Of a stretch of DNA of 64,000 nucleotides, positions 17,322 to 64,000 are shown piece by piece; the stretch's first letter is position 1; each line of letters starts with the position of its first letter. The position numbers were made by a program, and so were the translations under genes. The stretch covers positions 11,529-75,528 of the forward strand of contig JAFCEE010000003.1 in NCBI GenBank assembly GCA_017609285.1, read 5' to 3'. Under the pieces are notes generated by a model. The model saw only the letters and a list, made by a program, of their open reading frames with translations, ran no database searches and was not told where the DNA came from. This DNA is from Candidatus Pacearchaeota archaeon. Its GTDB lineage: Archaea > Nanobdellota > Nanobdellia > Pacearchaeales > GW2011-AR1.

Positions 17322-19284
<1,963 letters not shown>

Positions 19285-44565: not shown

Positions 44566-44583
44566 AGAAAAAAAGGAGGTAAA

Positions 44584-49540: not shown

Positions 49541-49718
49541 TTTTACCTCCTTTTTTTACTTAAATTAGTATTATATTGTAAGGAGTATATTTAAATCTAT
49601 CGATAGAACATTTAAGATAAACGAGAAATAAAAAATCCATCAAACAGTTCATAAATCGGAAAGGTTTATATATCTTAAAGTTCTTCAAAATATATTATTC
49701 CGGCGGATAGCCATAAAA

Positions 49719-52265
49719 ATGAGAAAAAATAAAAAAGGGTTGAGCCAAATAATTGTAACAATTCTCTTGATTTTGCTTATAATTTTAGCAACAGGAATTT
49801 TTTGGACTACAACAAAAAAAGTTTTCTATAAAAAACCTTTAGAGATTGAGTCACTCATGACTAATTTAAGAATAACAGGTTATAATATTTCAGAAAATCT
49901 TGCTATAATAAGTTTAACCAGAGACCCTGGCGGAGGCGAACTTTTAGGTGTTGCTTTTGTTTTTTATAATGAAACTTCTAATTATATTCATAAAGATTAT
50001 AGACCCATAGCAGAATTAGAAACAAAAACATTTGTTATAGAATTCAAAGATAAAATTTCAGATATCATTAAAATAGAAATCCGTCCAATATTTAAAACAG
50101 AAGAAAAAAAGGAGGATATAGGAAAGCCACAATCTGCTTTAACAAAAACAGAATCTGGATGGATAGTTACTTCTGGGGGTGGAGGAGGTGGAGGCAGGAC
50201 CCCCACTCCACAACCAACACCCTCGCCACCAACACCAACAGTTTATTGGGCTAATTTAGAAGGTGAAGAAATAACTACTGCTACATTAGGAGATACTGTT
50301 TATTTATATTTTATAAATTCAGGATTGCCTCAGGATACAGAAATTTATTTTGAAATTTACGAAAAAGACAGTTTGTTAGTTGGAGACATAGCCCAATTTG
50401 ACGATTTTATTAGAGTAGGAGAAAATAACATTACAGGAACAGTTGATTCAAGTGGAAAGGCAATTGCCACATGGACTATAACACAAGAAGATTATAATTT
50501 AGCGAGTGGAAAATATGAAGAAGGGAATTTAGAATTTTACTTTACTGCTAAAGGAAAGAACTCTGATTATTTATATGTATCTGAACAAGAATGTATTCCA
50601 GATTGCATTGATAAAGAATGTGGTGATGACGGTTGTGGAGGTAGTTGTGGTTCTTGCCCTGCAGGAGAAGAATGTAGTTTTGGAATCTGCATTAATCCTC
50701 TCGAATTAAAACCAGATATGAAAATTAAATTATGGGCTATTCAAGGAAATACTTTTACTGAAACAAGAACAATTTATCTCCCACTCTATGAACAATATGG
50801 AATTGATGTAATTCAAAATGGTTGGGCTGGAATTTTTGCAGGAGATAATTTCCCTTCAAGAGTGGGCTATTGGGCTGGAAACGCCTCATTATATAATATG
50901 GAACTTCATACATATATTAAAACTTATGGGAGTGATATAACCCCTGTAGATTCTGTTTCAAGTTTAGAAATTTGGCCTGATAATTTTAAAGCAATTATGA
51001 TGGATAGTGAAAATAAAGACAGTATTGAAATTCAAGACGCGAGATTTAGTCCTTACAAGGATGTTATTCCTTCAGATGTAAAATTAATTGCTCCTGAAGG
51101 TCCTCACATAAGTTCAAGTATCGAAAGACAATATACTGAAATAGGACAAGTTTGGGGAAGAGTATTTGGATGGGACTGGAAAGTAGTTGATGAAGATGGA
51201 ACAACAAACACAATACAGGATTGTAGGAGGGTTACAGATCTACCAGCTATTATGTATATAGCAGAAAGACAGGGTTTTGGAAATTCTAAATATGGGAATA
51301 AAGAAATTTATATAGGGGCCCAATTACTTAATACATATAAAGAAAAGTTCAATAGTTCTGAAAAAACTAATCCAACTTCTAAAGACTGGTATGAATCTTC
51401 TAAAGAATTTCCAGAAAATGTTAGGTCCTCAATTTATCTTATTGCTCAAGCAAGTTTAAAATCAGCTCACGGTGTTCATTGGGGGCTTCACAAATATAGT
51501 CTTGAAGATTCAATAGATATTTTAGAAAACTTAAAATTAGCTTATGATACTGTAAATTCTCAAAAAATAACTTATGATGCTCATGCGATTAACCCTGTTG
51601 TTGGTGTTTTGATAGACGAAAAAACTAATGTTAACTCGGGGGGGATGAGAGTTATGTGGGAGATGGTCATAAGAGGAAACATCCCTTTTGAAGTTATTTA
51701 TGAAGAAGATTTAACATCAGAGAATCTTGCAAATTATGAGGTATTATTAATACCTCATTTAGATAATGAGAATATTCTAGAATTCGCATCTGATCAACAA
51801 CTAAATTTAAAAAATTTTGGAGAGAATAAATTAATTTTAACAGAGCATAGGGATGCGGCATATACTCCAAAACCTTCATGGGTTACTCCTTTATTATCTG
51901 GCTCACACCATATTTTAAGGTTAGATATAGTTCCTGAAAATTATAACAATTATTGTAATGGATATGAACCTTGTAGAGAGCCAAAACCAACTTTCAGTGG
52001 GTTCAGTGGTTTTATGTATGTAAATGCGAGTTGGAGAAATCCTGGAGAGAATTATTTTCATTATAATGAAACTCAATATCATTATGATGAGAGAATGGAG
52101 TGGTTAATTAGAGATTATCAAAGTAAAATTTATGAAAAAACAGGAGTAAGTCCTTGCAATGAAAATTACAATATCATATGTAAAGAATTTATAATGAATG
52201 GAAAAAGGTATGTCTGGAATGTTAATACAACAGATGGAACAATGGAAATAAAAGCTCTTGATTAA
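49719..52265 (+). CDS. 848-aa pilin-fusion protein: class-III-signal pilin module, poly-Gly/Pro-Thr linker, beta-sandwich, Cys-knot-like module and a ~520-aa unassigned domain
   Basis: MRKNKKGLSQIIVTILLILLIILATG. Linker SGGGGGGGRTPTPQPTPSPPTPT (nt 50171-50240). CIPDCIDKECGDDGCGGSCGSCPAGEECSFGICI. The C-terminal domain contains IPFEVIYEEDLTSENLANYEVLLIPHL, reminiscent of GH42-type trimerisation/GATase-like folds (weak). Confidence 0.65.
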   Translation: MRKNKKGLSQIIVTILLILLIILATGIFWTTTKKVFYKKPLEIESLMTNLRITGYNISENLAIISLTRDPGGGELLGVAFVFYNETSNYIHKDYRPIAELETKTFVIEFKDKISDIIKIEIRPIFKTEEKKEDIGKPQSALTKTESGWIVTSGGGGGGGRTPTPQPTPSPPTPTVYWANLEGEEITTATLGDTVYLYFINSGLPQDTEIYFEIYEKDSLLVGDIAQFDDFIRVGENNITGTVDSSGKAIATWTITQEDYNLASGKYEEGNLEFYFTAKGKNSDYLYVSEQECIPDCIDKECGDDGCGGSCGSCPAGEECSFGICINPLELKPDMKIKLWAIQGNTFTETRTIYLPLYEQYGIDVIQNGWAGIFAGDNFPSRVGYWAGNASLYNMELHTYIKTYGSDITPVDSVSSLEIWPDNFKAIMMDSENKDSIEIQDARFSPYKDVIPSDVKLIAPEGPHISSSIERQYTEIGQVWGRVFGWDWKVVDEDGTTNTIQDCRRVTDLPAIMYIAERQGFGNSKYGNKEIYIGAQLLNTYKEKFNSSEKTNPTSKDWYESSKEFPENVRSSIYLIAQASLKSAHGVHWGLHKYSLEDSIDILENLKLAYDTVNSQKITYDAHAINPVVGVLIDEKTNVNSGGMRVMWEMVIRGNIPFEVIYEEDLTSENLANYEVLLIPHLDNENILEFASDQQLNLKNFGENKLILTEHRDAAYTPKPSWVTPLLSGSHHILRLDIVPENYNNYCNGYEPCREPKPTFSGFSGFMYVNASWRNPGENYFHYNETQYHYDERMEWLIRDYQSKIYEKTGVSPCNENYNIICKEFIMNGKRYVWNVNTTDGTMEIKALD

Positions 52266-52280
52266 TAAAACCTTATTTAT

Positions 52281-53204
52281 CTAACAACTTAATTGATATT
52301 TTGAACAATGAGAAGAATCAATTTTAAACCAAGAGGGCATTCCTTCTATAGAATAACTTTCAGGATTATTTGAGGAAAAATAAATATAATCAACAACACT
52401 TTTGCTTTGGACAAACAAGCCTTGAGCTGAAAGTTCAGGCAAATAAACAAAGCTTTCGATACCATATTCACTTGCTTCCTTTTTTCCTTCTAATCTATTA
52501 ATAAAACTAGGAGCTAATGGATTAGAAGCATAATACTTATTCTCTAAATGTAAAGAAAGGTTCGTTGTGTCTGAGCCGGAAACATAATTTCCTTCATAAA
52601 GAGTTTTATTAATTTTTCTTGAAACTTTTCCTAAGGTTTCCACAATATATATAGGATCTTCAAATCCTTCTACACCTATATATGCTTTTATGTTTTCTTT
52701 TTTATACCATCTTGCTAATCCAGACTTATCTTTAAGTTCTAAAGTTGCGTTAAAATAAACCACGACATTCCAAGGATCTTCTTGACTAACACCGACTTTA
52801 ATGTCAGAAAGATTAATTATTAGATTCATTTTGTCTGCTTTTTCTTGTATCTTTTCTTGTATTTCTGTTATTGTAGTGTCTTGTAAAATTTCTGAAGCAT
52901 CTCCATATATTGTTCCATTTAAAATTGCTTCATTAAATAATTCTGAGAAATTTGATATATAATTACCTGTTTTAGTTATGTAGTCTTCAGCTGAAAAGAT
53001 AATTCTGAAACCAGAAGTGTAAAGTTGTCTTTCAAGGTCTTTTTCTGTAGATAAAAGAAAGGATTCCATTGTTTTTATTCTTGTTTTTATTGTTTGCCTT
53101 TCATACAATACACTATAGATTTCAGAAGATACAAAGAACAATAAAAGCAAAGAAATAGCTATTAAAGTGAATATCTGGCCTTTTTTGTTTCTCACTAAAT
53201 CCAT
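52281..53204 (-). CDS. Pilin-like protein, 307 aa (class III signal peptide), ending in a C-terminal Cys
   Basis: MDLVRNKKGQIFTLIAISLLLLFFV (KKG/QIFTL). The C-terminus is ...SHCSKYQLSC. It overlaps the ICMT-like gene by 10 nt. Confidence 0.6.
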   Translation of the reverse strand: MDLVRNKKGQIFTLIAISLLLLFFVSSEIYSVLYERQTIKTRIKTMESFLLSTEKDLERQLYTSGFRIIFSAEDYITKTGNYISNFSELFNEAILNGTIYGDASEILQDTTITEIQEKIQEKADKMNLIINLSDIKVGVSQEDPWNVVVYFNATLELKDKSGLARWYKKENIKAYIGVEGFEDPIYIVETLGKVSRKINKTLYEGNYVSGSDTTNLSLHLENKYYASNPLAPSFINRLEGKKEASEYGIESFVYLPELSAQGLFVQSKSVVDYIYFSSNNPESYSIEGMPSWFKIDSSHCSKYQLSC

Positions 53205-53659
53205 TTTCTTACCTTTCTTTTATAATCTAAATATTTTCTCCCAAATTTTTTCTCTAAATTTTTCTCCTCAAGAGGAATAGTCCAAATGTTTGTCATAATA
53301 ATAAACAGCAGAGGAAATAAAAAAGTTATTATTGAGCCAAGTAAAATTGCTTCCCCAAACAAAATCAAAGCCATGCCGAGATATATAGGATTTCTGCTTA
53401 TTTTAAAAACTCCTGATGTGATGAGCACTTGCGGAACTTCATTTGGTTTCATTGTGTTTTTTTCCTTTTTATAAACAAAATATACATGTAAATTAAAATA
53501 TATTCCTAAGACAATTAATAATATTCCTAGGTAGTTATATGGGAGGCTTACTACTTTTTTAATTGGAAAAACATAATGCAAAATTATATTTAATACAACC
53601 ATTATCATAAAATAATTGGGCGGCATTATTTTCAATTTCTTTCCCATTTTTATCTCCAT
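53195..53659 (-). CDS. Isoprenylcysteine carboxyl methyltransferase (ICMT)/PEMT-family membrane methyltransferase
   Basis: LITSGVFKISRNPIYLGMALILFGEAILLGS...IPLEEKNLEKKFGRKYLDYKRKVRKWI matches the ICMT-family pattern (G.y...RhPmY.g..l...g......EE..L...FG..Y..Y...v....P). Four to five TM helices. Confidence 0.75.
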   Translation of the reverse strand: MEIKMGKKLKIMPPNYFMIMVVLNIILHYVFPIKKVVSLPYNYLGILLIVLGIYFNLHVYFVYKKEKNTMKPNEVPQVLITSGVFKISRNPIYLGMALILFGEAILLGSIITFLFPLLFIIMTNIWTIPLEEKNLEKKFGRKYLDYKRKVRKWI

Positions 53660-56283
53660 ACTCTAACCTGGACTTCATTACTATAAGTATAAGGGATTCC
53701 TGTAATTTCACTTGAACTTATTTGTAAATCTTGTTCTGAAAATTTGCTATCGACTCTACCATCGGAATTCAAATCTAAATTTGTTAATAAATCATAAACG
53801 GCATTCGAGATTGCATCATTTTCATTGTAAACTATTTTTTCACTAGTAAAATAACAAGCGTTATCTCCAGAGTAATTTTGGGGTACATTTATTGTAATAT
53901 TTGTAAAGTCATAAAACTCTATGTTCCAGGTACAGCCTTGAGAGGAAGCCACAATAGGTGAGTAACCTAAAGCCTGCTTTATTATTGTGTATATTATTTT
54001 GTTGGAATGGGAGCCTCCAGATGAGTTTGCTGGTGAAACTCCAGTAGTTATCTTTACTTCATTTTCACCTTTTTTTATTTTTTCTTTTGGTATATAAATA
54101 AAATAAGGGTCTCCTAACTCTAAATAATCCCCGCCATAAGAAGAAAGATCAAATATTTCTTGCCATGTTTCATTTAGTATACTAACCCTGTCTGTCCATC
54201 TCGGTCCTGAATATGAGACAGCTATAGCCTCTATAACTTCAGAATCTTGAGGGACAGAAAAGTTTCCTATTGAGATATCATTCCCAAACTCTTCTGATTC
54301 TGTAGTTATAATTAAACCATAAGGAGTTTCAGTTTCATAATCGAAATGCATATAAGAATCAGGATACAAAATAGTTTCATTAAATATGCCGCTTATGTTT
54401 GCTACCTGTTCTATAAATCCTAATTCAAGAATTTCTTGGGCTATGTTTGTATAAATATCTTGTAAAATATTTGGATTCTGGCTTGCATAATATTTGCCTT
54501 TACCACAATTAGCTATATTCTGTAAAGTTTTATTTGCCATATCACAATCAGAAACAGGGCCGAAACCTATTGCATAAACTTTAGCATTCATTTCATTCCT
54601 CAATCTACAGGAAGACCAATTTGCATTTTGGCTCGCACACCAACAATCGTTTACATCACAATCATCCACCCCACCATAACATCCAACCCCCCATCCCAAC
54701 CATAAACCCTCATTTCCCGGTGTGCCATCTCTTGTTCCTTCGCAACCAGAAGCTGCCTGGCATGTATGTGTAGGGATGCCGTCAGACATAACTATCACGA
54801 ATTTTTGCCTACTATCATTACTTTGCTCATTTAGAATATTGTAAGCATTGTTTTCAGAACAGCAAATACAAGTTCCTCCTCTTGGTGTATATTCATCTAT
54901 TTTTTGTTTTAGATAAGCTGAATTATTTGTTAAACCTTCTTGATAAACTCTTCCTTTGTAAGGGTTTGTTGTGTCTCCATAAAAAGCAGATAAAGCTACT
55001 CTATTCCCCGAGATATTTAGAATCATATCTACCACCATCTTATCTAAACATTTAGCTAAAGAAATTCTTTTTGTATCTGAGTTATATAACCTAGGATCAT
55101 CACATTCCCTACTTACACCTGAACGATCAGAATCCATTCTTGAATCCATGCTTCCACTTAAATCAGTAATTAAAACAACATCTGCATTTCCTTGTTTTAT
55201 TTTCTCCTGAATTTCATATAGGCCTAACCTTATTGGTATTGTCTTTTTACTTATCTCTTGATAATTAAGTAAAGATGAAAGTTGTGTGTTTGTTATTGTC
55301 TCTTGTTTGTCTCCAGAGCCCTCATAAACTGTTGTGTTTCCTATAGTTAGAAAAAGTTTATATGGACTGTAATAGTGTAAAAAGATTTCCATTCCTGTTA
55401 TATCAAAAGGAGAATAAAAAGAATCATAGATGTTTATTATTCCTTCTATACCTGGAAAAAATTTTTTCTTTTCTTGGGCAGGCGTAGTATCATCAAAATT
55501 TATTTTTATATAGCCTCCAGCTATGTATAAGTTTTCTCCTCTTAACTCGAGGATATTCTCACCGGAATGAAAGTTAGTTATAGGTATGGTGCACTTTTGA
55601 GGCGAGTAAAGGGGGGTTATCTTTTCATAATGTGCTTCAAAATTTTCATTCACATATAAATCAAAATCTTTATTGATTGCTATTTCCATTAAAGCAGATT
55701 TTATGTTGCCCTCATAATCTATTCTAACAGAAAGATTTCCATCACCAACATAACCGCCAAAATAAAAGTATTTAACATTACTTGCCCTTTCCAAGAAAGC
55801 GCGGGCTGAAAACCCCCTCACATTTTCGCCTTTTTCTATCCCACTTATGATTTGTCTTGAGATCCATATTTGTTCTGCTTGTTCTATTGGCGTTGTATTA
55901 TAAGAAGCTATTAGTTCATCATCAAACCATATTCCTATGTTATTTTCTGGTGAAAGTTCTGAAAGTATATTTTCAGTTAATGTTTCAGCTTCAGGCATAC
56001 CTTTTGCATAAAACTCTATTATCTGCTCCAAAATTGTTAAATTTCCAGACGCCTTATTTTCTGCGAGAAGTTGGGAAACATAAGAATTATTAATCTCATT
56101 TGTTTTTAATGTTGACAGAATAGACAACAAATCATTTTGTATTTCTACTTGTATAGTTTCTTGTTTAGTTACTGGCTTGATAACTAAAATAACTGCAAGA
56201 ATCACAACTAAAGCTATAAATGCATCTAAGGTATAATAATAAGCCTTTTTTCCTTTTATTTTTAACATTTTAATTCCACACAT
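53650..56283 (-). CDS. 877-aa pilin-like-anchored von Willebrand factor A (vWA) domain protein, Cys-rich
   Basis: N-terminus KGKKAYYYTLDAFIALVVILAVILVI. MIDAS ADVVLITDLSGSMDS (nt ~55150-55185) with downstream FVIVMSDGIPT. A Cys-rich insert CQAASGCEG...GCYGGVDDCDVNDCWC. The alternative ATG at 56268 gives a 1-nt gap after the upstream stop. Confidence 0.8.
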   Translation of the reverse strand: MCGIKMLKIKGKKAYYYTLDAFIALVVILAVILVIKPVTKQETIQVEIQNDLLSILSTLKTNEINNSYVSQLLAENKASGNLTILEQIIEFYAKGMPEAETLTENILSELSPENNIGIWFDDELIASYNTTPIEQAEQIWISRQIISGIEKGENVRGFSARAFLERASNVKYFYFGGYVGDGNLSVRIDYEGNIKSALMEIAINKDFDLYVNENFEAHYEKITPLYSPQKCTIPITNFHSGENILELRGENLYIAGGYIKINFDDTTPAQEKKKFFPGIEGIINIYDSFYSPFDITGMEIFLHYYSPYKLFLTIGNTTVYEGSGDKQETITNTQLSSLLNYQEISKKTIPIRLGLYEIQEKIKQGNADVVLITDLSGSMDSRMDSDRSGVSRECDDPRLYNSDTKRISLAKCLDKMVVDMILNISGNRVALSAFYGDTTNPYKGRVYQEGLTNNSAYLKQKIDEYTPRGGTCICCSENNAYNILNEQSNDSRQKFVIVMSDGIPTHTCQAASGCEGTRDGTPGNEGLWLGWGVGCYGGVDDCDVNDCWCASQNANWSSCRLRNEMNAKVYAIGFGPVSDCDMANKTLQNIANCGKGKYYASQNPNILQDIYTNIAQEILELGFIEQVANISGIFNETILYPDSYMHFDYETETPYGLIITTESEEFGNDISIGNFSVPQDSEVIEAIAVSYSGPRWTDRVSILNETWQEIFDLSSYGGDYLELGDPYFIYIPKEKIKKGENEVKITTGVSPANSSGGSHSNKIIYTIIKQALGYSPIVASSQGCTWNIEFYDFTNITINVPQNYSGDNACYFTSEKIVYNENDAISNAVYDLLTNLDLNSDGRVDSKFSEQDLQISSSEITGIPYTYSNEVQVRVWR

Positions 56284-56785
56284 ATAGTGTTAGTTTGACA
56301 GGTTTATTTTCATAAATCATAAACCTTTCAATCCTGACAAGATTTTTTTGTTCTGCCGGGATTTTTCCTATACCATCTATATCCTCACCCATAACCCTAA
56401 TTCCTGGAAAATAAAAATAAAAATCGTATCTTATGCCTAATAATTTTTTTAATTTTTTATAATCTTCCTCACTATCTGTTAGGTTATAGAAAAAATCCAG
56501 TTTAGTTTGATTTATTTTTTTCTGACTTAAAATTCCTGGAATTTCTACGTTGTCATAAGAAGTCCAGTTTTTTGGGCTTCCTTCTGATAAAATTAAATTT
56601 GAGAGAAGATATCCATCATAAAACATAGATTCTAAAATATCTCCTGAAGTTGAAACAAAATTTATTACATACACGTAAATAGCCACTATCCCAATTAAGA
56701 ATATAATTACAGCTATTATAAGATCAAATCCCCAAATCTGTCCTTGTTTTTCTGTATGATTAGGAGTTAAGATAAACCTTGCCAT
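56270..56785 (-). CDS. Pilin-like protein, 171 aa (class III signal peptide)
   Basis: TEKQGQIWGFDLIIAVIIFLIGIVAIYVY. It overlaps both neighbours. Confidence 0.55.
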   Translation of the reverse strand: MARFILTPNHTEKQGQIWGFDLIIAVIIFLIGIVAIYVYVINFVSTSGDILESMFYDGYLLSNLILSEGSPKNWTSYDNVEIPGILSQKKINQTKLDFFYNLTDSEEDYKKLKKLLGIRYDFYFYFPGIRVMGEDIDGIGKIPAEQKNLVRIERFMIYENKPVKLTLYVWN

Positions 56786-57149
56786 CTTGTTTTTTTATAA
56801 TATTCCTTCCTTTTTGTATTTGTCCATCTACCTCTTTTATTTTTAAAGAGAGCGCGTTCCTTGTTGTCTTGATATAAATGCTACCATCTACAATTTCTAT
56901 ACTATAATCTCTTCCTAAAATCAGTTCTGGAACTGAAAATTCTCTGATATAGCCATCAGAAGCTTCTGTAGCAATATTAATTTCATCTTGTATGCCTAAT
57001 GCTAAATTTTTAATAAGCAAATTTTCTTTTTCCTTACCTTTTTCCTCTGTTTGAGTCCCAATTGCAATAAAGAATACTGTGAAGGAGAATAATACTAATC
57101 CTAAAATAATTAAAAATTCTATGCCAGATTGACTTCTTCTCTTTTTCAT
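56760..57149 (-). CDS. Pilin-like protein, 129 aa (class III signal peptide, DUF361-like)
   Basis: MKKRRSQSGIEFLIILGLVLFSFTVFFIAI (QSGIEFLI motif). Confidence 0.65.
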   Translation of the reverse strand: MKKRRSQSGIEFLIILGLVLFSFTVFFIAIGTQTEEKGKEKENLLIKNLALGIQDEINIATEASDGYIREFSVPELILGRDYSIEIVDGSIYIKTTRNALSLKIKEVDGQIQKGRNIIKKQDGKVYLNS

Positions 57150-57159
57150 TTTTATTTTC

Positions 57160-57588
57160 TTAGCTTATAATAACTTTATCAGGCTGAGCTTTAATTAGTA
57201 ATTTTCTTGAACCTTCTCCAACCTGAATACTGCCTTCTAATGTAACTCTTGAAGAGAAAGCTCTTTTCATTGTTCCTGTAGATGTAGAAAAAGTTATTAT
57301 CAAATTTTTTTCATTAAATTCTATATTTTTAATTCCTTGAGGCATATATATTGTTATTGTAGTTTGAGAAGGTTCTCCTGCAAAAAAAACAGACTCTGCT
57401 GAACTAATAATTTTTGTGGCGATGGTTTCTATTTGATTTATTCTTATTCTGTCTCTTGAAATACCAATGTAAAAATATGCTGCTATTAAAATCGTGGTAA
57501 CAGCAAGAGTAACAAATCCTGTTATGATTAAATACTCAATTCCAGACTGCCCTTTATATTTAGATCGTAAATGTGTTTTGAGTTTCAC
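57160..57588 (-). CDS. Pilin-like protein, 142 aa (class III signal peptide, DUF361-like)
   Basis: RSKYKGQSGIEYLIITGFVTLAVTTILIAAYF (QSGIEYLI motif). Confidence 0.65.
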   Translation of the reverse strand: MKLKTHLRSKYKGQSGIEYLIITGFVTLAVTTILIAAYFYIGISRDRIRINQIETIATKIISSAESVFFAGEPSQTTITIYMPQGIKNIEFNEKNLIITFSTSTGTMKRAFSSRVTLEGSIQVGEGSRKLLIKAQPDKVIIS

Positions 57589-57706: not shown

Positions 57707-58183
57707 ATGGGAAAAAAGAGGGATTTTTTTATCGTATTATTAATACTAATGTTTTTAGCAGCCTCAAATACTCTTGTTTATTCTGATAAAACCAATATAA
57801 AGGTTTCTGGTTTTTCTATAAAAAATGTTTACGATAAGTTGATGAAGTTAGATATGTCTACAATAATTTTCGTGATTCAATGGTTTTTGGTTTTAGTTGT
57901 TGTTATTATTTTTTATATTAATTTTTTGAAAAAGAGGAGAAAAGAAAAAGCTAAACCTGTTAATATGAATGTAAAGAAGAAAACTGGGACGGATGTGGAC
58001 ACAGATTTAGATATTCTTTACAACTTATTGAAACAAAAAAAGCGTTTAAAAATTTCTGTGATTGCTAAAACTTTTAAGGTGAATAATGAAAAAGCATTGG
58101 AGTGGTCTAGGATTTTAGAAAATAATGATTTAGTAAAAATAGAACATTTCGCATTTTCTGAACCAGAAGTTGAAATAAAATGA
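57707..58183 (+). CDS. Membrane protein with a C-terminal winged-helix-like domain, first gene of the ATPase operon
   Basis: Signal/TM at the N-terminus, a second TM (IIFVIQWFLVLVVVIIFYINFL), then LDILYNLLKQKKRLKISVIAKTFKVNNEKALEWSRILENNDLVKIE. Its stop overlaps the ATPase start (ATGA). Confidence 0.45.
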   Translation: MGKKRDFFIVLLILMFLAASNTLVYSDKTNIKVSGFSIKNVYDKLMKLDMSTIIFVIQWFLVLVVVIIFYINFLKKRRKEKAKPVNMNVKKKTGTDVDTDLDILYNLLKQKKRLKISVIAKTFKVNNEKALEWSRILENNDLVKIEHFAFSEPEVEIK

Positions 58184-59928
58184 GGAAAAAGAAAAGGGGA
58201 TTGGAAAGGGAGAAGAAAAAAGTTGGGAAAATTAGAAGAAAACATAGAGAAAAGAAAGCTATACAAACAAAAATTGGAAAATCTCTTAAATTTAAGTATA
58301 AGGAGGGGGAGCAAAAACAAGGGAAGACAGCTAACAATACCGATAGAAAAATAAGATTAGTAGAATTGAAGAGTGAAAAAAGAGAAATTGAAAAAAAACA
58401 AAAAAGAAAACTGAAAAAGAAAAAGAAGAAAGAGAAAGATGTTAAAAGTAAGGTTATAGAGCGATACGAGTTAAATGTTGACAATGCTATAGTAAATATT
58501 AAGATAGAACAGGGGGGAGAAGGCTTAGCATATAATTTATACATGCCAAAGATTGGCATAGGAACTCTTGCTTTACTTGAAGAGGTAAGAAAAGAGCTGA
58601 TTTCTGTTACAACGATTGGTGTTGGTGAAATGACAGATATAAAATCAATAGCGAGAATAAAGAGGCAGTTTATGAAGCAGATTTCAAAATTATTGAGGGA
58701 GAAAGTTCCTAACATTAGCTTAAAGGCAGAGAGATTTTTGGTAGGAATTTTAATGCAAGAAATGCTAGGTTTGGGTAAGCTGGAGTTTTTAATAAACGAT
58801 CCACACTTAGAAGAAATAGTTGTCATTAGCAGTAAAGAACCTGTAAGGGTATATCATAAAAAATATGGATGGCTTCCTACTAATATAAGAATAGATAAAG
58901 AAGAGGACATAAATAATTATGCAAATATAATTGCAAGAAGAGTAGGAAGGCAAATAAATATTTTAACTCCTTTATTAGATGCTCATGTAGTTACTGGAGA
59001 TAGAGCAAATGCTGTTTTATATCCTATTGCCACTAAAGGTAGCACTATAACTATAAGAAAATTTGCTAGGGACCCTTGGACTATAATCGATTTAATTAAT
59101 AATAAAACAGTTAATTTAGAAATAGCTGCTTTATTATGGCTTGCTATAGAATATGAGATGAATATTCTAATTTCTGGAGGTACAGCCTCAGGAAAAACAG
59201 TTTTTTTAAATGCATGTATGCCCTTTATCCCTCCAAATCAGAGAGTTATTAGTATAGAAGACACAAGAGAATTAATGTTGCCTAAATTTTTGTATTGGTG
59301 CCCTCTTGTTACAAGAATACCAAATCCAGAAGGGAAGGGCGAGGTTTCTATGTTGGACTTATTAGTAAATAGCTTAAGAATGAGGCCTGATAGAATTGTC
59401 TTAGGAGAAATGAGAAGACAGAGAGAGGCTGAAGTATTGTTTGAGGCAATGCATACTGGCCATTCTGTTTATGCTACTGTTCATGCAGATACTGCATCTG
59501 AAACAATATCAAGATTAACAAATCCCCCACTAAATGTTCCTCCTAACCTTTTGAAAGCAGTGAACTTGAATGTGGTAATGTTCAGAGATAGGAGAAGAGG
59601 AATAAGAAGAGTTTATCAGGTTGCTGAATATATAGCTAGTAGAGATGGAGTTACTCCGAATATTCTTTATAGGTGGGCTCCTGATAGAGACGAAATAGTA
59701 AAACATAATAATAGTATAATTTTTATGGAAGAGCTGGGTAGAAATACAGCAATGTCACAAAAAGAGATAAATGAAAGTCTTGAAGAGAAAAAAAAGATTC
59801 TTTCATGGATGTTAAGGCATAATCTCAGAAGCTTTGAGCAGATAGGAAAAGTGATGAGTCTTTACTATACAAATCCAAAACTACTTTCTGAAATTATAAA
59901 AAAAGATGATTTGAGCAAAATAAAATAA
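58180..59928 (+). CDS. Type II/IV secretion-family ATPase (FlaI/PilB/TadA-like) with a ~100-aa polybasic N-terminal extension
   Basis: Walker A ISGGTASGKTVFLNA, Asp box VISIEDTRELMLP, Walker B RMRPDRIVLGEMR, His box HTGHSVYATVHA. The N-terminus MRKKKRGLEREKKKVGKIRRKHREKK...KKKKKKEKD is unusual. Confidence 0.9.
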   Translation: MRKKKRGLEREKKKVGKIRRKHREKKAIQTKIGKSLKFKYKEGEQKQGKTANNTDRKIRLVELKSEKREIEKKQKRKLKKKKKKEKDVKSKVIERYELNVDNAIVNIKIEQGGEGLAYNLYMPKIGIGTLALLEEVRKELISVTTIGVGEMTDIKSIARIKRQFMKQISKLLREKVPNISLKAERFLVGILMQEMLGLGKLEFLINDPHLEEIVVISSKEPVRVYHKKYGWLPTNIRIDKEEDINNYANIIARRVGRQINILTPLLDAHVVTGDRANAVLYPIATKGSTITIRKFARDPWTIIDLINNKTVNLEIAALLWLAIEYEMNILISGGTASGKTVFLNACMPFIPPNQRVISIEDTRELMLPKFLYWCPLVTRIPNPEGKGEVSMLDLLVNSLRMRPDRIVLGEMRRQREAEVLFEAMHTGHSVYATVHADTASETISRLTNPPLNVPPNLLKAVNLNVVMFRDRRRGIRRVYQVAEYIASRDGVTPNILYRWAPDRDEIVKHNNSIIFMEELGRNTAMSQKEINESLEEKKKILSWMLRHNLRSFEQIGKVMSLYYTNPKLLSEIIKKDDLSKIK

Positions 59929-59938
59929 GTTTCATAAA

Positions 59939-60820
59939 ATGAAATTCAAGATACCTTTTACATTTTCAAGTATAGATATTTTAAAGAAAAGAGGCAAGAG
60001 ATTTTCCCGCATTTTTCGAGTTAAAAAAAAATCAAAGCTTTCTACATATTTGAAAGATTCAGACGTAAACCTGTCTAAAGAAGAGTATCTTGGTATATGT
60101 TTGAGAACATTTTTCTTTGTTTTTATTCTTTTACTAGTCATTTTTACTTCTCTCCTCGGAATTCTAAAAGTCAGTTATTTTTACTTTTATGGTTTATTTG
60201 CCTCACTTATTTTTTCTTTTTTTATTTTTTTTATGCAAATAAATTATCCGAGGGTTTACAGTTTCAGAAAGACGAGAGATATTGAGAAAAATTTGATTCC
60301 GTCTTTACAGGATATGTTAGTCCAATTGGAATCCGGTGTTCCAATATTTCAGATTTTAGCAAATATATCTTCCTCTGGTTATGGATTTGTTAGTTATGAA
60401 TTTAGGAGGGCAGTAAAAGAAATAAATTCAGGAGTTCCTCAGATAGAAGCCTTAGAAGACTTAATCAAAAGAACATCATCTACATATTTTAAGAGAGTCT
60501 TATGGCAGATAAGCAATGGTTTGAGGAGCGGGAGTGATATGTCTGTTGTCATAAAAGATAGTATTGATAGTTTAAATAAAGAACAAGCTATTCAAATTCA
60601 GACTTATGGGAGCAAATTAAATCCCTTAGTTATGTTTTATATGCTGATAACTGTAATTATACCCTCTCTTGGAATAACTTTTCTAACTATTTTGTCATCT
60701 ATGTTGGGTTTGTCTGGCAGTTTAGTAAAGTTAATGTTTATTGCTACATTTATTTTTGTTTTATTAATACAAATAATGTTTTTAGGTTTAATTAAAACAA
60801 GGAGGCCTAGTTTATTATGA
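59939..60820 (+). CDS. Type IV filament platform protein with a single T2SSF domain (TadB/FlaJ-half-like)
   Basis: LIPSLQDMLVQLESGVPIFQILANIS...FRRAVKEINSGVPQIEALEDLIKR...VLWQISNGLRSGSDMSVVIKD, with TM helices at both ends. Confidence 0.75.
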   Translation: MKFKIPFTFSSIDILKKRGKRFSRIFRVKKKSKLSTYLKDSDVNLSKEEYLGICLRTFFFVFILLLVIFTSLLGILKVSYFYFYGLFASLIFSFFIFFMQINYPRVYSFRKTRDIEKNLIPSLQDMLVQLESGVPIFQILANISSSGYGFVSYEFRRAVKEINSGVPQIEALEDLIKRTSSTYFKRVLWQISNGLRSGSDMSVVIKDSIDSLNKEQAIQIQTYGSKLNPLVMFYMLITVIIPSLGITFLTILSSMLGLSGSLVKLMFIATFIFVLLIQIMFLGLIKTRRPSLL

Positions 60821-61785
60821 ATACCCTAAAACTTATTCCAAAAAAATTAAGAAAAAGTTATGAAAAGAATATTTCAAATGCTGGCATAAAGATAAGTCCT
60901 GAAAAATATGTTTCCAGGTTGTTTTTTACAGGGATTATATCTGCAACATTATTAAGTCTAATATTATTTTTTTTTAAAGTTAATCCTATTCTTACTTTTG
61001 TCTTAACTTTTTTTATCTTGCAAATAATATTTTACTTTAGATTATCTCTACTTGCTACTGCAAGAATCAAGAAGATGGAATCTGTGTTTCCTGATTTTAT
61101 ACAATTAATGTCAAGTAATCTAAGAGCAGGGCTTACTGTTGATAAAGCTTTTTTATCCTCGGCAAGACCGGAACTAGCCCCTCTTGACGAAGAAATTTTG
61201 AAAACAGGAAGAGAGATAGCTACTGGACAAGATATTATTTTAGCTTTTAGGAATATGGGAAAAAGGGTAGATTCAGAAAAAATAGAGAAAATTATTTCCC
61301 TTATTATCTCTGGTTTGAAAGCAGGAGGCAATATTTCTACTTTGCTTGAAACAACCGCCTCAAACATGAGAGAAAAAGAGTTTTTAGAAAAAAGGGCAGC
61401 CTCTAATGTTTTAATGTATGTTATTTTTATTTTTGTTGCTGTTGGATTTGGTGCTCCACTGTTGTTTGGACTTTCCTCTATTCTTGTTGAGATCATAATC
61501 AATTTGACAGCGCAACTTCCTAGTGCTCAGGCTACTCAAATAAATCTCCCTTTTACTCTTTCATATTTAGGCTTATCACCAAAATTCATACTTTATTTTT
61601 CTTTACTTTTCTTAATTGCAATTGATATTGTTTCGAGTTTAGTCATTGGTTTGGTTAATAAAGGAGATGAGAAATATGGGTTAAAATATATTTTTCCTTT
61701 AATTGCATTATCTATAGGAATTTTTTTTGGCGTTAGGTTTTTTCTTTACCGAGTTTTAGTCGAGAGCTTTTCTATTGTTTCTTAA
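60817..61785 (+). CDS. Type IV filament platform protein with a single T2SSF domain (TadC/FlaJ-half-like)
   Basis: VFPDFIQLMSSNLRAGLTVDKAFLSSA...LDEEILKTGREIATGQDIILAFRNMGKRV...IISLIISGLKAGGNISTLLE. It overlaps the upstream gene by 4 nt. Confidence 0.75.
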   Translation: MNTLKLIPKKLRKSYEKNISNAGIKISPEKYVSRLFFTGIISATLLSLILFFFKVNPILTFVLTFFILQIIFYFRLSLLATARIKKMESVFPDFIQLMSSNLRAGLTVDKAFLSSARPELAPLDEEILKTGREIATGQDIILAFRNMGKRVDSEKIEKIISLIISGLKAGGNISTLLETTASNMREKEFLEKRAASNVLMYVIFIFVAVGFGAPLLFGLSSILVEIIINLTAQLPSAQATQINLPFTLSYLGLSPKFILYFSLLFLIAIDIVSSLVIGLVNKGDEKYGLKYIFPLIALSIGIFFGVRFFLYRVLVESFSIVS

Positions 61786-61840
61786 AGTTTTTATAAACTT
61801 AAAGAAAAAGCTTTATAAGTTTAAATTCTCTAAAGAAAAT

Positions 61841-62566
61841 ATGAAAAAGAGAAAAATTAAAAGGAAAAAAGAGGTTAGGATTAATAGTGGAATAAAAGGT
61901 TTTGATGATTTAGTAGAAGGTGGTTTTGATGAAGGTTCTGTAAATATGATTGTTGGTAGCTCTGGTTCAGGAAAAACGATATTTGCCTTACAGTTCTTAA
62001 TGGCTGGTTTGAAAAAAGGGGAGTCTTGCTTGTATGTTACATTTGAGGAGAAGAAAGAAGAGTTTTATGATAATATGAAAAATTTTGGATGGGATCTTAG
62101 TAAATATGAAAAAAAAGGAAAATTTTTCTTTCTTGAGTACAGCCCTGAAAAAGTTAAAGTTATGATTGAAGAAGGGGGAGGGGAAATGGAGAGTATAGTT
62201 ACTAGACATAAGATAACTAGATTAGTTATAGATTCTGTAACTTCTTTTGCTTTATTATTTGAAGATGAACTTGAAAAGAGAGAGGCAGCTTTAGCTTTAT
62301 TTGATATTATAAGGAAATGGAAATGTACTAGTTTATTAACTTTAGAAGAAGATCCAAAAGAAAGGAAGGGTGGATCTTCTTCTTTGGAATTTGAGGTTGA
62401 TAGTATTATACTTCTTTATTTTATAAGACAGAAAAGGAAAAGAAAGAGGTTTGTTGAGGTACTCAAAATGAGAGGAACCAAACATTCTAATGAAATTCAT
62501 GCTCTTGAGATAGGAGAATCTGGGATAGAAGTTTCTAAGGAAATTTATGTTAATGGTATAGATTAA
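61841..62566 (+). CDS. KaiC/RecA-superfamily ATPase (FlaH-like)
   Basis: INSGIKGFDDLVEGGFDEGSVNMIVGSSGSGKTIFALQFL...CLYVTFEE...LVIDSVTS...EVLKMRGTKHS (COG0467 pattern). The ORF track starts at 61775, but the ATG at 61841 follows aaagctttataag, a TATA-like box. Confidence 0.8.
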   Translation: MKKRKIKRKKEVRINSGIKGFDDLVEGGFDEGSVNMIVGSSGSGKTIFALQFLMAGLKKGESCLYVTFEEKKEEFYDNMKNFGWDLSKYEKKGKFFFLEYSPEKVKVMIEEGGGEMESIVTRHKITRLVIDSVTSFALLFEDELEKREAALALFDIIRKWKCTSLLTLEEDPKERKGGSSSLEFEVDSIILLYFIRQKRKRKRFVEVLKMRGTKHSNEIHALEIGESGIEVSKEIYVNGID

Positions 62567-62641
62567 TTAAAGGAAGTTAAATATGCACACCTCATTTTGA
62601 ACTACTTGTTCTAAAGTTTCTGGTTTTCTTAATAAACATCA

Positions 62642-62668
62642 TTTATAAAAACGAAAGCTTTATAAATA
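62642..62668 (+). promoter_or_regulatory. BRE/TATA-like promoter element, copy B of the 27-bp exact repeat
   Basis: tttataaaaacgaaagctttataaata, about 35 nt upstream of the ATG at 62703. Identical to 33999-34025. Confidence 0.55.
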
Positions 62669-62702
62669 ATACTTACTGCTTAATAGTAACAAATAAGGGA
62701 AA

Positions 62703-63812
62703 ATGAAATGGGAAAAAGGAGCTAAAGAAACTTTAATAGGTTATGGTTTGGCAGCCGGAGTTTTATTAATTGGAAGTCTATATATTATGAATAAAAGTGA
62801 GGTAAGAGAAGGTGAAAGAAGTTTAAGACAGGAGTCCGGTTTGGTTAAAGTTGTGAAAGAAGAAAGTTCAACAATCAGCAACGGAGGAATTGAGAGAAAT
62901 TCAATTCGTAAAAAGCCAGAGATAAGAAAGGGGTTACAAAAAACAGCAACATATGATTTTGATAATTATATTTCAGCTATTTTTGATATTGAAAGTTCTG
63001 ATAATCCAAATGCTCAAAGATATGAACCGGGGATAAATGACACAAGTTATGGGTTAGGCCAAATTTTAACAAATGTTGCTTTAACATTAGAAAGAAGAAA
63101 TCCAAATTTACCGAGAATTTCAGATTATTCTGGATTAGATGAAAAATTAGAAAGTGATGAAAGAAAATTAGCAGAAGAAAGTTTAGTTAGATTATATGGA
63201 AAGAGAGCAAGAGTAAAAACAAAAAGAGGAGGGTGGGAAATTCAAGAAATAAAAATTGATGGTAACTTCGAGGGGGATTTAGTTGCTCAGGAATTTTTAA
63301 GGAGAATACAAAGAAAACATAATCTAAGAGTAAAAGGAGAATTAGATGACGCAACATATCAAGCAATACAAAAAGAAAGGCATTTGCAAGATATGTTAAC
63401 TAATCCTAAAATAAATGAGGCTTACACAAGGGCATTGTTTAGAGAGGAATTAGAGTATTTTAATGATGCAGAATTAGCTGTTGCTGCATATAATGCAGGA
63501 AGGCCTGCTGTTATTAATGCTGCTTATCAAACAATGTTAAATGAATTTTTAGGAACATCATTAAAACCAGATGGAGTTATTGGTAATAAAAGTAGGGAAG
63601 TTATAAGAAAATTTCAAGAAAGGTATGGATTAAGAGTTGATGGAATTCTTGGACCAAATACAAAAGCAAGGATACGGGAGGTTTATGAAACACTAATAGG
63701 AAAATCCCCTTTAAAAGGAGCTATGCCCCAAAATAGATATACTCCAAATCATGTTAGAAAATTTAATGCTGCTCTAGAAACAATTGAAAAACATAAGAAA
63801 ACAAGAAATTAA
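62703..63812 (+). CDS. Membrane-anchored lytic transglycosylase (SLT family 1 motifs) with peptidoglycan-binding (PG_binding_1) repeats
   Basis: TM LIGYGLAAGVLLIGSLYIM. SLT motifs FDIES (catalytic E-S), YGLGQI, LTNPKINEAYTRALF and AVAAYNAG. PGB repeat PDGVIGNKSREVIRKFQERYGLRVDGILGPNTKARI, plus a degenerate one (LRRIQRKHNLRVKGELDDATYQAIQ) inserted within the SLT domain. Confidence 0.8.
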   Translation: MKWEKGAKETLIGYGLAAGVLLIGSLYIMNKSEVREGERSLRQESGLVKVVKEESSTISNGGIERNSIRKKPEIRKGLQKTATYDFDNYISAIFDIESSDNPNAQRYEPGINDTSYGLGQILTNVALTLERRNPNLPRISDYSGLDEKLESDERKLAEESLVRLYGKRARVKTKRGGWEIQEIKIDGNFEGDLVAQEFLRRIQRKHNLRVKGELDDATYQAIQKERHLQDMLTNPKINEAYTRALFREELEYFNDAELAVAAYNAGRPAVINAAYQTMLNEFLGTSLKPDGVIGNKSREVIRKFQERYGLRVDGILGPNTKARIREVYETLIGKSPLKGAMPQNRYTPNHVRKFNAALETIEKHKKTRN

Positions 63813-63823
63813 AAAAGCATATT

Positions 63824-64000
63824 CTAATCCTTGAAAATGAACTTATCAATTTTGTTTTTTGCTTTTTCTCTTTCCTGCTGATGTTTTTTCAAGAAAGTAT
63901 TGATTTTTTCAATTAATATCTCTTTTAATTCTGAAGTTAAAAGCTCTCCTGAACGATATTTTCTTTCAATTTTCTCAAGTTTTTTATTATCTGGCTCAAA
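63824..64000 (-). CDS. trpS: Tryptophanyl-tRNA synthetase (archaeal/eukaryotic type), C-terminal fragment running off the window
   Basis: Own translation: FEPDNKKLEKIERKYRSGELLTSELKEILIEKINTFLKKHQQEREKAKNKIDKFIFKD*. It aligns with human TrpRS [51 protein letters not shown]. Confidence 0.85.
   Translation of the reverse strand, partial: FEPDNKKLEKIERKYRSGELLTSELKEILIEKINTFLKKHQQEREKAKNKIDKFIFKD

What the first reader, a model, noticed from the sequence alone, without database searches (positions are those of the whole stretch)
62703..63812. Peptidoglycan lytic transglycosylase with PG-binding repeats in an archaeon, directly downstream of the filament locus
All three SLT family-1 motifs are present (E-S at FDIES, GLGQ, AYNAG), together with a clean PG_binding_1 repeat and an N-terminal membrane anchor. 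Archaea of this type have no murein. A murein-cleaving, murein-binding ectoenzyme next to an adhesion filament therefore suggests an attack or penetration function against a bacterial cell wall, or horizontal acquisition from bacteria or phage. The SLT domain is also unusual because about 100 aa, including a degenerate PG-binding repeat, are inserted between the GLGQ and AYNAG motifs.
Basis: partly seen in the sequence, partly recalled or inferred. Interest (0 to 1): 0.65.

Follow-up and report, generated by a model that had tools for sequence, protein, structure and literature searches.

The report
Archaeal membrane-anchored murein lytic transglycosylase
A tiny symbiotic-type (DPANN/Nanoarchaeota) archaeon, which has no bacterial-type cell wall, encodes a surface-tethered enzyme built to bind and cut bacterial cell wall; the gene is real and native, but this kind of gene has already been reported in these archaea and its role is still untested.

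Summary
ORF 62703-63812 (+) encodes a 369-aa protein with five parts. They are an N-terminal hydrophobic anchor, a ~50-aa disordered linker, an SLT/GH23 lytic transglycosylase domain (Glu97-Ser98, GLGQ, AYNAG), a PG_binding_1 domain (E=1e-17) and a family-specific C-terminal helix. The SLT domain is split by a net ~82-aa insertion (not ~100). The insertion is itself a degenerate PG_binding_1 module (hhalign 98%).

The contig is archaeal with no compositional break. The gene sits in conserved synteny on both sides, so it is neither chimeric nor a recent bacterial or phage import. It belongs to a family of ~45-50 clusters of exported SLT+PG-binding proteins. Every named or context-checked member is from a Nanoarchaeota/Woesearchaeota MAG. 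Only five of 50 aligned members carry the insertion.

Adjacency to the type IV pilus locus is real but seen in only 4 of 9 loci. The steadier neighbour is a tRNA synthetase gene.

Lytic transglycosylases in Woese-/Pacearchaeota, and the idea that they attack bacterial walls, are already published (Castelle 2021, Vigneron 2022, and earlier work cited there). I therefore file this as a new member of a known kind with a modest architectural twist. Activity and target remain untested.

The parts
62703..63812 (+). Complete ORF, 369 aa: membrane-anchored SLT/GH23 lytic transglycosylase with two PG_binding_1-type modules
62567..62702 (+). 136-bp intergenic region after the KaiC-like gene. It holds two TATA-like boxes (TTTATAAAAA at 62642-62651, TTTATAAATAA at 62659-62669). 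It probably carries the gene's own archaeal promoter, but this is inference only, because such strings are common in 30% GC DNA.
   Evidence: sequence read directly
62730..62792 (+). aa 10-30, the single N-terminal hydrophobic segment (signal anchor or uncleaved signal peptide). All 50 relatives have an N-terminal hydrophobic segment, and about 14 of them have a Tat-like S/T-R-R-x-F-L motif that this protein lacks.
62793..62942 (+). aa 31-80, low-confidence charged linker, presumably a flexible tether. Model pLDDT is below 50 here.
62949..63116 (+). aa 83-138, N-terminal half of the SLT domain: the catalytic helix ending in Glu97-Ser98 (62991-62996), a beta-hairpin, and GLGQ (63051-63062)
63117..63386 (+). 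aa 139-228, the module inserted in an SLT loop: a three-helix, degenerate PG_binding_1-like domain with an extra beta-hairpin. The second DG motif has become KG.
63387..63524 (+). aa 229-274, C-terminal half of the SLT domain, including AYNAG (63486-63500)
63525..63698 (+). aa 275-332, canonical PG_binding_1 domain
63699..63806 (+). aa 333-368, family-specific conserved C-terminal extension (G-x-x-P-x-N-x-Y-T-P-N-H-V-R-K-F followed by a helix). Its role is unknown.
58180..62566 (+). Context: type IV filament assembly genes. FlaI/PilB-like ATPase 58180-59928, two T2SSF/ArlJ-like membrane proteins 59939-60820 and 60817-61785, KaiC/ArlH-like ATPase 61775-62566.
49115..57588 (.). Context: pilin-like genes with class III signal peptides (KGQ/SGIE-type N-termini). 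They include an 877-aa VWA-domain protein (53650-56283, -) and an 848-aa protein (49719-52265, +).
63860..64000 (-). C-terminal end of a convergent class Ib aminoacyl-tRNA synthetase gene (tRNA-synt_1b) that runs off the window. It is the most conserved neighbour of this gene family.
   Evidence: 58-79% aa identity to the tRNA-synt_1b genes next to the homologues in L001, L008, L010, L011

Best explanation
The gene encodes an exported, membrane-tethered lytic transglycosylase of the SLT/GH23 type.

Proposed mechanism:
- The N-terminal hydrophobic segment holds the protein in the archaeal membrane.
- A ~50-residue flexible linker lets the ectodomain reach outward.
- Two PG_binding_1-type three-helix modules dock the enzyme on murein. 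One is nested in a loop of the catalytic domain and one follows it.
- Glu97 acts as the single catalytic acid/base. It cleaves the MurNAc-beta-1,4-GlcNAc bond and forms 1,6-anhydro-MurNAc ends.

The archaeon makes no murein, so the substrate must be bacterial wall. The most likely role is local thinning or opening of the wall of a bacterium the archaeon is attached to, whether partner, host or prey. The adjacent adhesive type IV pilus possibly brings the two cells together.

Shown here: the domain content, conservation of the catalytic motifs, the export signal, the archaeal and vertically inherited context, and a confident fold model.

Inferred: enzymatic activity, murein as the substrate, and the biological role.

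My sub-estimates are ~0.8 that it is an active exported murein-type glycan lyase and ~0.45 that its role is contact-dependent action on living bacteria.
For: Domains:
- SLT and PG_binding_1 both score above Pfam gathering cut-offs.
- The SLT match becomes contiguous (profile 15-106/117, E=2.6e-10) when the insertion is removed.

Catalytic residues:
- The family profile aligns Glu97 with Glu478 of E. coli Slt70 (the catalytic residue, from established knowledge of Slt70).
- GLGQ and AAYNAG align with GLMQ and AAYNAG of the Pseudomonas and E. coli Slt enzymes.
- Glu97 is invariant in 50/50 relatives. Ser98, Gln120 and Tyr263 are conserved in at least 90%, and Asn264 and Gly266 are invariant. This indicates selection for catalysis.

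Structure:
- The AF2 model has pLDDT >90 from residue 81 to the end, with a helix ending at Glu97, a beta-hairpin, and three-helix bundles for both binding modules.
- The insertion-less relative P0010 has lytic transglycosylases as its best PDB matches: Cj0843, MltE (TM 0.51 on MltE length), Slt70 and MltF, all with probability 1.0.
- The PG-binding module superposes on SleB and C. difficile PG-binding domains at 1.3-2.2 A.

Export: all 50 relatives have an N-terminal hydrophobic or Tat-type export signal.

Archaeal, native context:
- establish this.
- There is synteny with Nanoarchaeota MAG loci on both flanks.
- No murein-synthesis gene was found among the window ORFs scanned.

Literature: the same inference has been drawn for LT-domain proteins of Woese-/Pacearchaeota (PMC8204110, PMC9723730, PMC10936187). 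Archaeal peptidoglycan hydrolases have been shown to kill bacteria in other lineages (PMC12352652).
Against: - No activity, localisation or expression data exist for any member of this family.
- Foldseek E-values are weak (0.01-0.4, none <=0.001), so the fold evidence supports the sequence evidence rather than standing alone.
- I could not inspect model coordinates, so the geometry of Glu97 in the groove is unverified.
- GH23 also contains chitinases, and PG_binding_1 occurs in proteins that do not bind murein, so the substrate is not proven.
- To my knowledge, cultivated DPANN archaea have archaeal, not bacterial, hosts.
- Only 64 kb of the genome was available, so the absence of murein synthesis in this organism rests on general knowledge of archaea.
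- Linkage to the pilus locus is not conserved across the family.
Confidence: 0.6

Rival explanations
1. Nutrient scavenging. The enzyme digests free murein fragments or the walls of dead bacteria in the environment. This would supply amino sugars and amino acids to an archaeon with minimal biosynthesis, and would need no specific host contact.
For: The same window encodes other apparently extracellular hydrolases: a staphylococcal-type nuclease with a lamin-tail domain (11657-12385) and a matrixin-like protease with a CARDB domain (12681-13631). The gene is a stable chromosomal gene next to a housekeeping tRNA synthetase gene in most relatives, not part of an attachment operon. Scavenging lifestyles are widely proposed for DPANN archaea (PMC8204110, PMC10936187).
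Against: A membrane-tethered enzyme reaches only material touching the cell. No muropeptide uptake or recycling genes (AmpG, NagZ, AnmK-type) were seen in the window. Two binding modules plus a tether look more like a device for holding on to an intact sacculus.
Confidence: 0.22
2. Dedicated accessory of the neighbouring type IV pilus. The enzyme would be functionally coupled to the filament machinery, as specialised lytic transglycosylases are in bacterial secretion and pilus systems. Here it would open the partner's wall at the point where the pilus attaches or retracts.
For: The gene lies 136 bp downstream of the ATPase/T2SSF/KaiC-like genes on the same strand. The identical arrangement is found in two other contigs (L008, L009). 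A fourth relative has it ~6.5 kb from the pilus locus (L003). The locus carries a VWA-domain pilin-like protein that suggests adhesion.
Against: Five other loci (L001, L010, L011, L014, L015) show no pilus genes within the available flanks. These include one insertion-bearing member, L014, though only 2.7 kb of upstream sequence was available there. The four linked loci are mutually syntenic relatives, so the linkage may simply be inherited gene order. The gene appears to have its own promoter region.
Confidence: 0.12
3. Not a murein lyase in practice. The protein could be a non-catalytic adhesin, or an enzyme acting on another beta-1,4-linked GlcNAc polymer such as chitin or a glycan of an archaeal host or of its own envelope.
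For: GH23 includes chitin-active members (established knowledge). The inserted binding module is degenerate, with DG changed to KG and a score below the Pfam cut-off. No biochemical data exist.
Against: Strict conservation of the catalytic Glu-Ser and of the GLxQ and AYNxG motifs across 50 diverged relatives argues for catalysis. The canonical PG_binding_1 domain scores strongly. Pseudomurein has beta-1,3 linkages that this enzyme class does not cut (established knowledge).
Confidence: 0.08
4. Artefact or recent import. This end of the contig would be a mis-assembled bacterial or phage fragment, or the gene a recent horizontal acquisition.
For: The domain types are typically bacterial or phage. 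PHROG endolysin families match the PG-binding part.
Against: GC content and tetranucleotide usage are indistinguishable from the rest of the window (gene r=0.937 against a window mean of 0.934). The upstream pilus genes and the downstream tRNA synthetase gene flank the homologue in independent assemblies. There is no phage relative beyond the binding module. Every named or context-checked relative is from a Nanoarchaeota/Woesearchaeota MAG.
Confidence: 0.02

Closest known systems
Family-1 soluble and membrane-bound lytic transglycosylases of Gram-negative bacteria (E. coli Slt70 and MltE, P. aeruginosa Slt, C. jejuni Cj0843)
   Same: Same catalytic domain (Pfam SLT, GH23). The catalytic Glu-Ser lies at the end of a helix and aligns with Slt70 Glu478. 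The GLxQ and AYNxG motifs are shared. These enzymes are the best sequence and fold matches among solved structures.
   Different: Those enzymes remodel the producer's own wall, and this producer has none. Here the domain is split by a nested PG-binding module, followed by a second one and a family-specific C-terminal helix, and is anchored by an archaeal N-terminal segment. Sequence similarity is remote (E ~1e-5 by profile).
[quoted passage not shown] 2021, PMC8204110; also Vigneron et al. 2022, PMC9723730; earlier reports cited there: Rinke 2013, Castelle 2015)
   Same: Same idea and same lineages: a murein-cleaving domain in DPANN archaea, predicted to be extracellular and proposed to bind and degrade bacterial walls.
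   Different: Those are described as large proteins (up to ~3,000 aa). This is a compact 230-370-aa, single-anchor SLT + PG_binding_1 family. I did not have fam00969 sequences, so direct homology of the catalytic domains was not tested.
Phage phiKZ gp144-type endolysins (PG_binding_1 + SLT)
   Same: Same two domain types in one polypeptide. gp144 appears among the sequence and fold matches.
   Different: The domain order is opposite (binding module first). gp144 has no membrane anchor, no nested module and a phage genomic context. Similarity is confined to the binding module.
Archaeal peptidoglycan hydrolases shown to kill bacteria (Halobacteria M23/PG_binding_1 proteins, A. boonei GH25; PMC12352652)
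   Same: An archaeon-encoded, secreted, modular murein-degrading protein with a PG_binding_1 module. That paper notes such homologues are especially prominent in Nanoarchaeota.
   Different: The catalytic class differs (peptidase or muramidase there, lytic transglycosylase here). Those have experimental support and this one has none.

Membership tests
SLT / GH23 family-1 lytic transglycosylase (Pfam PF01464) | Profile match above the curated threshold over the whole domain | tested here: met
   31.6 bits against a cut-off of 21.3 on the native protein, C-terminal half only. With aa 139-228 removed: 40.3 bits, profile 15-106 of 117.
SLT / GH23 family-1 lytic transglycosylase (Pfam PF01464) | Catalytic Glu (followed by Ser) equivalent to Slt70 Glu478 | tested here: met
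   Glu97-Ser98. The family profile aligns it with Q-E478-S of 1qsa. Glu97 is invariant in 50/50 relatives.
SLT / GH23 family-1 lytic transglycosylase (Pfam PF01464) | Motifs G-L-x-Q and A-Y-N-x-G | tested here: met
   GLGQ at 117-120 and AYNAG at 262-266. Both are aligned to the same motifs of Slt and Slt70.
SLT / GH23 family-1 lytic transglycosylase (Pfam PF01464) | Lysozyme-like fold with the Glu positioned in the substrate groove | tested here: inconclusive
   The models are confident (pLDDT >90 in the domain). The best PDB matches of the insertion-less relative are all lytic transglycosylases with probability 1.0.
SLT / GH23 family-1 lytic transglycosylase (Pfam PF01464) | Non-hydrolytic cleavage of murein giving 1,6-anhydro-MurNAc | not testable with these tools
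   Requires an enzyme assay on sacculi with LC-MS of the products.
PG_binding_1 (Pfam PF01471), C-terminal copy | Profile match above threshold and a three-helix bundle | tested here: met
   64.5 bits against a cut-off of 23. It superposes on SleB and C. difficile PG-binding domains at rmsd 1.3-2.2 A over 57-61 columns, probability 1.0.
PG_binding_1 (Pfam PF01471), inserted copy (aa 139-228) | Profile match above threshold | tested here: inconclusive
   Alone it scores 19.6 bits, below the cut-off of 23. BLASTP against the C-terminal copy finds nothing. Profile-profile comparison with the family's own PG-binding module gives probability 98%, E=2.8e-13 over 53 columns, and the model shows three helices plus an extra hairpin. 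I read it as a degenerate homologue.
Machinery-associated 'specialised' lytic transglycosylases (VirB1- or EtgA-type logic, applied to the adjacent type IV pilus) | Encoded within the machinery's gene cluster consistently across relatives | tested here: not met
   Adjacent or near in 4 loci (window, L008, L009, L003). Absent from the available flanks in 5 (L001, L010, L011, L014, L015).
Large DPANN LT-domain surface proteins (fam00969, PMC8204110) | Very large multidomain extracellular protein carrying an LT domain, in Woese-/Pacearchaeota | tested here: not met
   The lineage and the LT domain agree. The size does not: 369 aa here and 229-334 aa in the relatives. Sequence homology to fam00969 was not tested.
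Phage endolysin | Phage genomic context, or close phage homologues over the catalytic domain | tested here: not met
   Only the PG-binding module matches phage records and PHROG families. No viral fold match has E<=0.001. The flanks are cellular housekeeping and pilus genes.

The most novel reading that the evidence does not exclude
This compact, tethered SLT enzyme with its nested murein-binding module may work together with the adjacent adhesive type IV pilus. Together they would form the contact apparatus by which a Nanoarchaeota/Woesearchaeales archaeon latches onto a bacterium and breaches its wall. If so, this would be a concrete and experimentally tractable molecular handle on a cross-domain archaeon-on-bacterium episymbiosis or predation. 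No such interaction has yet been demonstrated for DPANN archaea.
Probability: 0.15. Interest if true: 0.7.

Novelty: new member of a known kind. Interest (0 to 1): 0.3.

Why it matters
Who the Woese-/Pacearchaeota-type DPANN archaea live on is an open question. Murein-cleaving genes are one of the few genomic hints that some of them target bacteria rather than archaea.

This family is small, soluble after removal of the anchor, strongly conserved and confidently modelled. That makes it a far easier protein to express and assay than the giant LT-domain proteins discussed in the literature. A positive murein-lyase assay, plus localisation at archaeon-bacterium contacts, would turn a long-standing genomic speculation into evidence.

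The PG-binding module nested inside an SLT loop is also a neat natural example of domain insertion tolerated by the lysozyme-like fold. As a discovery, though, the presence of such a gene in this lineage is not new.

Tried and rejected
1. Exact look-up of the window protein's own contig, to see further downstream, found no record. I identified the downstream neighbour from the last 141 bases by tblastx instead.
2. The genome-contig scan was saturated by short-motif hits and returned only 3 loci, all Nanoarchaeota or Woesearchaeota. It therefore gives no real distribution.
3. The all-representative profile search was flooded by long proteins made only of PG_binding_1 repeats with no SLT domain. 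Only the ~45-50 single-stretch, full-length hits are true family members.
4. BLASTP of the insertion against the C-terminal PG-binding domain found nothing. Profile-profile comparison was needed.
5. Foldseek with the full multidomain model gave only piecemeal, weak matches. The insertion-less relative gave cleaner but still statistically weak LT matches. The viral library added nothing.
6. A neighbour-joining tree on 188 core columns did not recover the five insertion-bearing proteins as one clade (0/100 bootstraps). The inserts are clearly homologous and sit at the same site. Single gain with losses, recombination or poor resolution therefore cannot be told apart, and I draw no conclusion.
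7. The donor lineage is unresolved. The nearest outgroup is a set of 150-210-aa SLT-only proteins at 35-40% identity. One context looks phage-like (L012) and one bacterial (L013), and most are unnamed.
8. The sigma-70 promoter scanner was not used because it does not apply to archaea. The TATA-like boxes were read by eye and are weak evidence in AT-rich DNA.
Full report
**What is there**

The ORF at 62703-63812 (+) exists exactly as described and encodes 369 aa. Pfam finds PG_binding_1 (E=1e-17, aa 275-323, 64.5 bits against a cut-off of 23). It also finds SLT/PF01464 (E=1.3e-7, 31.6 bits against a cut-off of 21.3), but only over aa 226-276, which is profile positions 56-107.

- Glu97-Ser98 within FDIES
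- GLGQ at aa 117-120
- AYNAG at aa 262-266

A single hydrophobic segment spans aa ~10-30.

To test whether the SLT domain is really complete but split, I removed aa 139-228 in silico. The remainder then matches SLT contiguously over profile positions 15-106 of 117 (E=2.6e-10, 40.3 bits). A profile of the family's catalytic core aligns Glu97 with Glu478 of E. coli Slt70. Glu478 is the catalytic residue from established knowledge of that enzyme. The same profile aligns GLGQ and AAYNAG with GLMQ and AAYNAG of the E. coli and P. aeruginosa Slt enzymes.

**The insertion**

In an alignment of 50 family members the architecture is strikingly uniform: 56 aa, an 8-aa loop, 46 aa, a 56-aa PG-binding module and a ~32-aa C-terminal extension.

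The loop is expanded to 76-93 aa in five proteins only: the window protein, P0002, P0003, P0004 and P0050. The net insertion here is ~82 aa, not ~100.

Evidence on what the insertion is:
- Alone it scores 19.6 bits on PG_binding_1, below Pfam's cut-off.
- BLASTP against the C-terminal copy finds nothing.
- A profile of the five inserts matches a profile of the family's own PG-binding module with 98% probability (E=2.8e-13, 53 columns). An extra hairpin sits between helix 1 and the first DG motif.

It is a whole nested domain.

A neighbour-joining tree did not recover the five insertion-bearers as a clade. I leave the history of the insertion open.

**Structure**

AlphaFold2 with the 50-sequence alignment gives pLDDT >90 from residue 81 to the C-terminus. 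Confidence is low for the anchor and linker. The secondary structure elements are:
- a helix ending at Glu97
- a beta-hairpin
- the helix after GLGQ
- a three-helix-plus-hairpin insert
- the remaining SLT helices
- a three-helix PG-binding bundle
- a final long helix

Foldseek with this multidomain model gives only piecemeal matches: PG-binding domains of SleB and a C. difficile protein at 1.3-2.2 A, P. aeruginosa Slt, and lysozyme. None has E<=0.001.

The insertion-less relative P0010 (model pLDDT 88) has lytic transglycosylases as all its top PDB hits. These are Cj0843, MltE, Slt70 and MltF, each with probability 1.0. E-values are only ~1e-2 and TM-scores 0.3-0.5.

The fold evidence therefore agrees with the sequence evidence but is not independently decisive. 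I could not inspect coordinates.

**Is it really archaeal and native?**

Archaeal markers in the window:
- a ThrRS with the archaea-specific editing domain
- a group II chaperonin
- a tRNA with a long intron
- a FlaI-like ATPase with ArlJ/ArlH-like partners
- many pilin-like genes with class III signal peptides

GC is ~30% throughout. The gene's tetranucleotide profile correlates with the window as well as an average 1.1-kb stretch does (0.937 against a mean of 0.934).

Independent assemblies carry the homologue in the same setting:
- L008 and L009 have pilins, ATPase, two T2SSF genes, a KaiC-like gene, then the SLT gene.
- L003 has it between ThrRS and the pilus locus.
- The last 141 bases of the window encode, on the minus strand, the C-terminus of a tRNA-synt_1b synthetase. 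This is the same convergent neighbour found next to the homologue in L001, L008, L010, L011 and L015.

Every relative that carries a source name, or whose genomic context was checked, is from a Nanoarchaeota or Woesearchaeota MAG; most relatives are unnamed.

Phage databases match only the PG-binding module.

The contig is therefore not chimeric, and the gene is an old, vertically inherited resident of this archaeal lineage. Its ultimate bacterial or phage donor is unresolved. The nearest outgroup is a set of small SLT-only proteins at 35-40% identity, seen in one phage-like and one bacterial-like context.

**Family**

The first search found 23 clusters. The exhaustive profile search found roughly 45-50 full-length representatives at 50% identity among 1.84 billion proteins. 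The many higher-scoring long hits are PG_binding_1 repeat proteins without an SLT domain.

Conservation across the 50 aligned members:
- Glu97, Gly117, Asn264 and Gly266 are invariant.
- Ser98, Gln120, Tyr263 and others are at least 90% conserved.

All members begin with a hydrophobic export segment. About 14 have a Tat-like S/T-R-R-x-F-L motif, and the window protein does not.

A conserved C-terminal motif (P-x-N-x-Y-T-P-N-H-V-R-K-F) followed by a helix is a family hallmark of unknown role.

**Link to the filament**

The adjacency is real. A 136-bp spacer containing TATA-like boxes separates the gene from the KaiC-like gene.

Across nine loci the pilus genes are adjacent or near in four. Those four are mutually syntenic. 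The pilus genes are absent from the available flanks in five, including one insertion-bearing member.

The comparative evidence thus does not establish functional coupling. Inherited gene order explains it equally well.

**How it most likely works**

Shown:
- an exported, anchored protein
- a complete and conserved SLT catalytic apparatus
- two murein-binding-type modules
- an organism of a domain that lacks murein

Inferred: it cleaves bacterial murein outside the archaeal cell, most plausibly on a bacterium in contact with it.

Rivals:
- scavenging of wall debris (the window also encodes a secreted-type nuclease and a matrixin-like protease)
- a pilus-coupled wall-breaching role
- a non-murein substrate or a purely adhesive role
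- artefact or recent import (effectively excluded)

**What is known already**

- PMC8204110, which cites Rinke 2013 and Castelle 2015 for the first three genomes
- PMC9723730
- PMC10936187

A 2025 study notes that peptidoglycan-hydrolase homologues are especially prominent in Nanoarchaeota. It demonstrates bacterial killing for other archaeal enzymes (PMC12352652).

Those reports stress very large proteins. The compact anchored SLT+PG_binding_1 family seen here, and its nested-domain variant, are not singled out in the papers I read. NCBI does already label members as 'lytic transglycosylase domain-containing protein' or 'peptidoglycan-binding protein'.

**Verdict**

I classify it as a new member of a known kind with a modest architectural variation. 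Interest 0.3.

Noticed in passing
window 24970-26479 (+): The thermosome (group II chaperonin) gene is in two ORFs. 24970-25953 matches Cpn60_TCP1 profile positions 1-284, and 25979-26479 matches positions 341-489. About 56 profile positions are missing across a 25-nt gap. This could be a split gene, a pseudogene or a sequencing or assembly error.
   Followed up: partly
window 14737-14878 (-): A tRNA match of 142 nt covers the full 71-position Rfam model. This implies a ~70-nt intron, which is typical of archaea. ARAGORN did not call it.
   Followed up: no
window 49115-57588: At least seven genes have class III (type IV pilin-like) signal peptides, with N-termini such as MKKGQ/AAMEFL and KGQ/SGIEYL. 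Two are very large: an 877-aa VWA-domain protein (53650-56283, -) and an 848-aa protein with no Pfam match (49719-52265, +). The latter is absent from the syntenic locus L003.
   Followed up: partly
window 11657-13631 (+): Two apparently extracellular hydrolases lie side by side: a staphylococcal-nuclease homologue with a lamin-tail domain (11657-12385) and a matrixin-like metalloprotease with a CARDB domain (12681-13631). Both fit a scavenging lifestyle.
   Followed up: no
window 43300-45003 (+): The GluRS-like gene (421 aa) contains only the catalytic domain and is followed by a 139-aa ORF without a Pfam match. The relative L011 has a 551-aa protein with the C-terminal anticodon-binding domains, and L003 also has a short version. 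This may be a split or reduced synthetase in this lineage.
   Followed up: no
window 30859-33927 (+): A PEP synthase/PPDK-type enzyme of 1022 aa carries an extra treble-clef zinc-finger domain (aa 828-862) and a long C-terminal extension.
   Followed up: no
window 17322-19117 (+): An IS240-type DDE transposase-like ORF (weak match) is followed directly by an N4/N6 DNA methyltransferase. This may be a mobile or restriction-modification island.
   Followed up: no
L001, L008, L010, L011, L015 (downstream of the SLT homologue): Beyond the convergent tRNA-synt_1b gene, four of these loci (L008, L010, L011, L015) carry a conserved 640-671-aa protein. In L008, L010 and L015 it has a faint alpha-2-macroglobulin MG2-domain hit, and it may be another surface protein. 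L001 instead has an unannotated 582-aa ORF directly after the SLT gene. The corresponding region lies beyond the end of the window.
   Followed up: no
Family members P0004, P0006, P0008, P0011-P0014, P0018, P0019, P0030, P0033 (N-termini): About 14 of the 50 aligned relatives (these 11 match the full S/T-R-R-x-F-L pattern) carry twin-arginine (Tat)-like signal motifs. One has a lipobox-like Cys. This implies Tat export and possibly lipid anchoring in some Nanoarchaeota. The window protein lacks the motif.
   Followed up: partly
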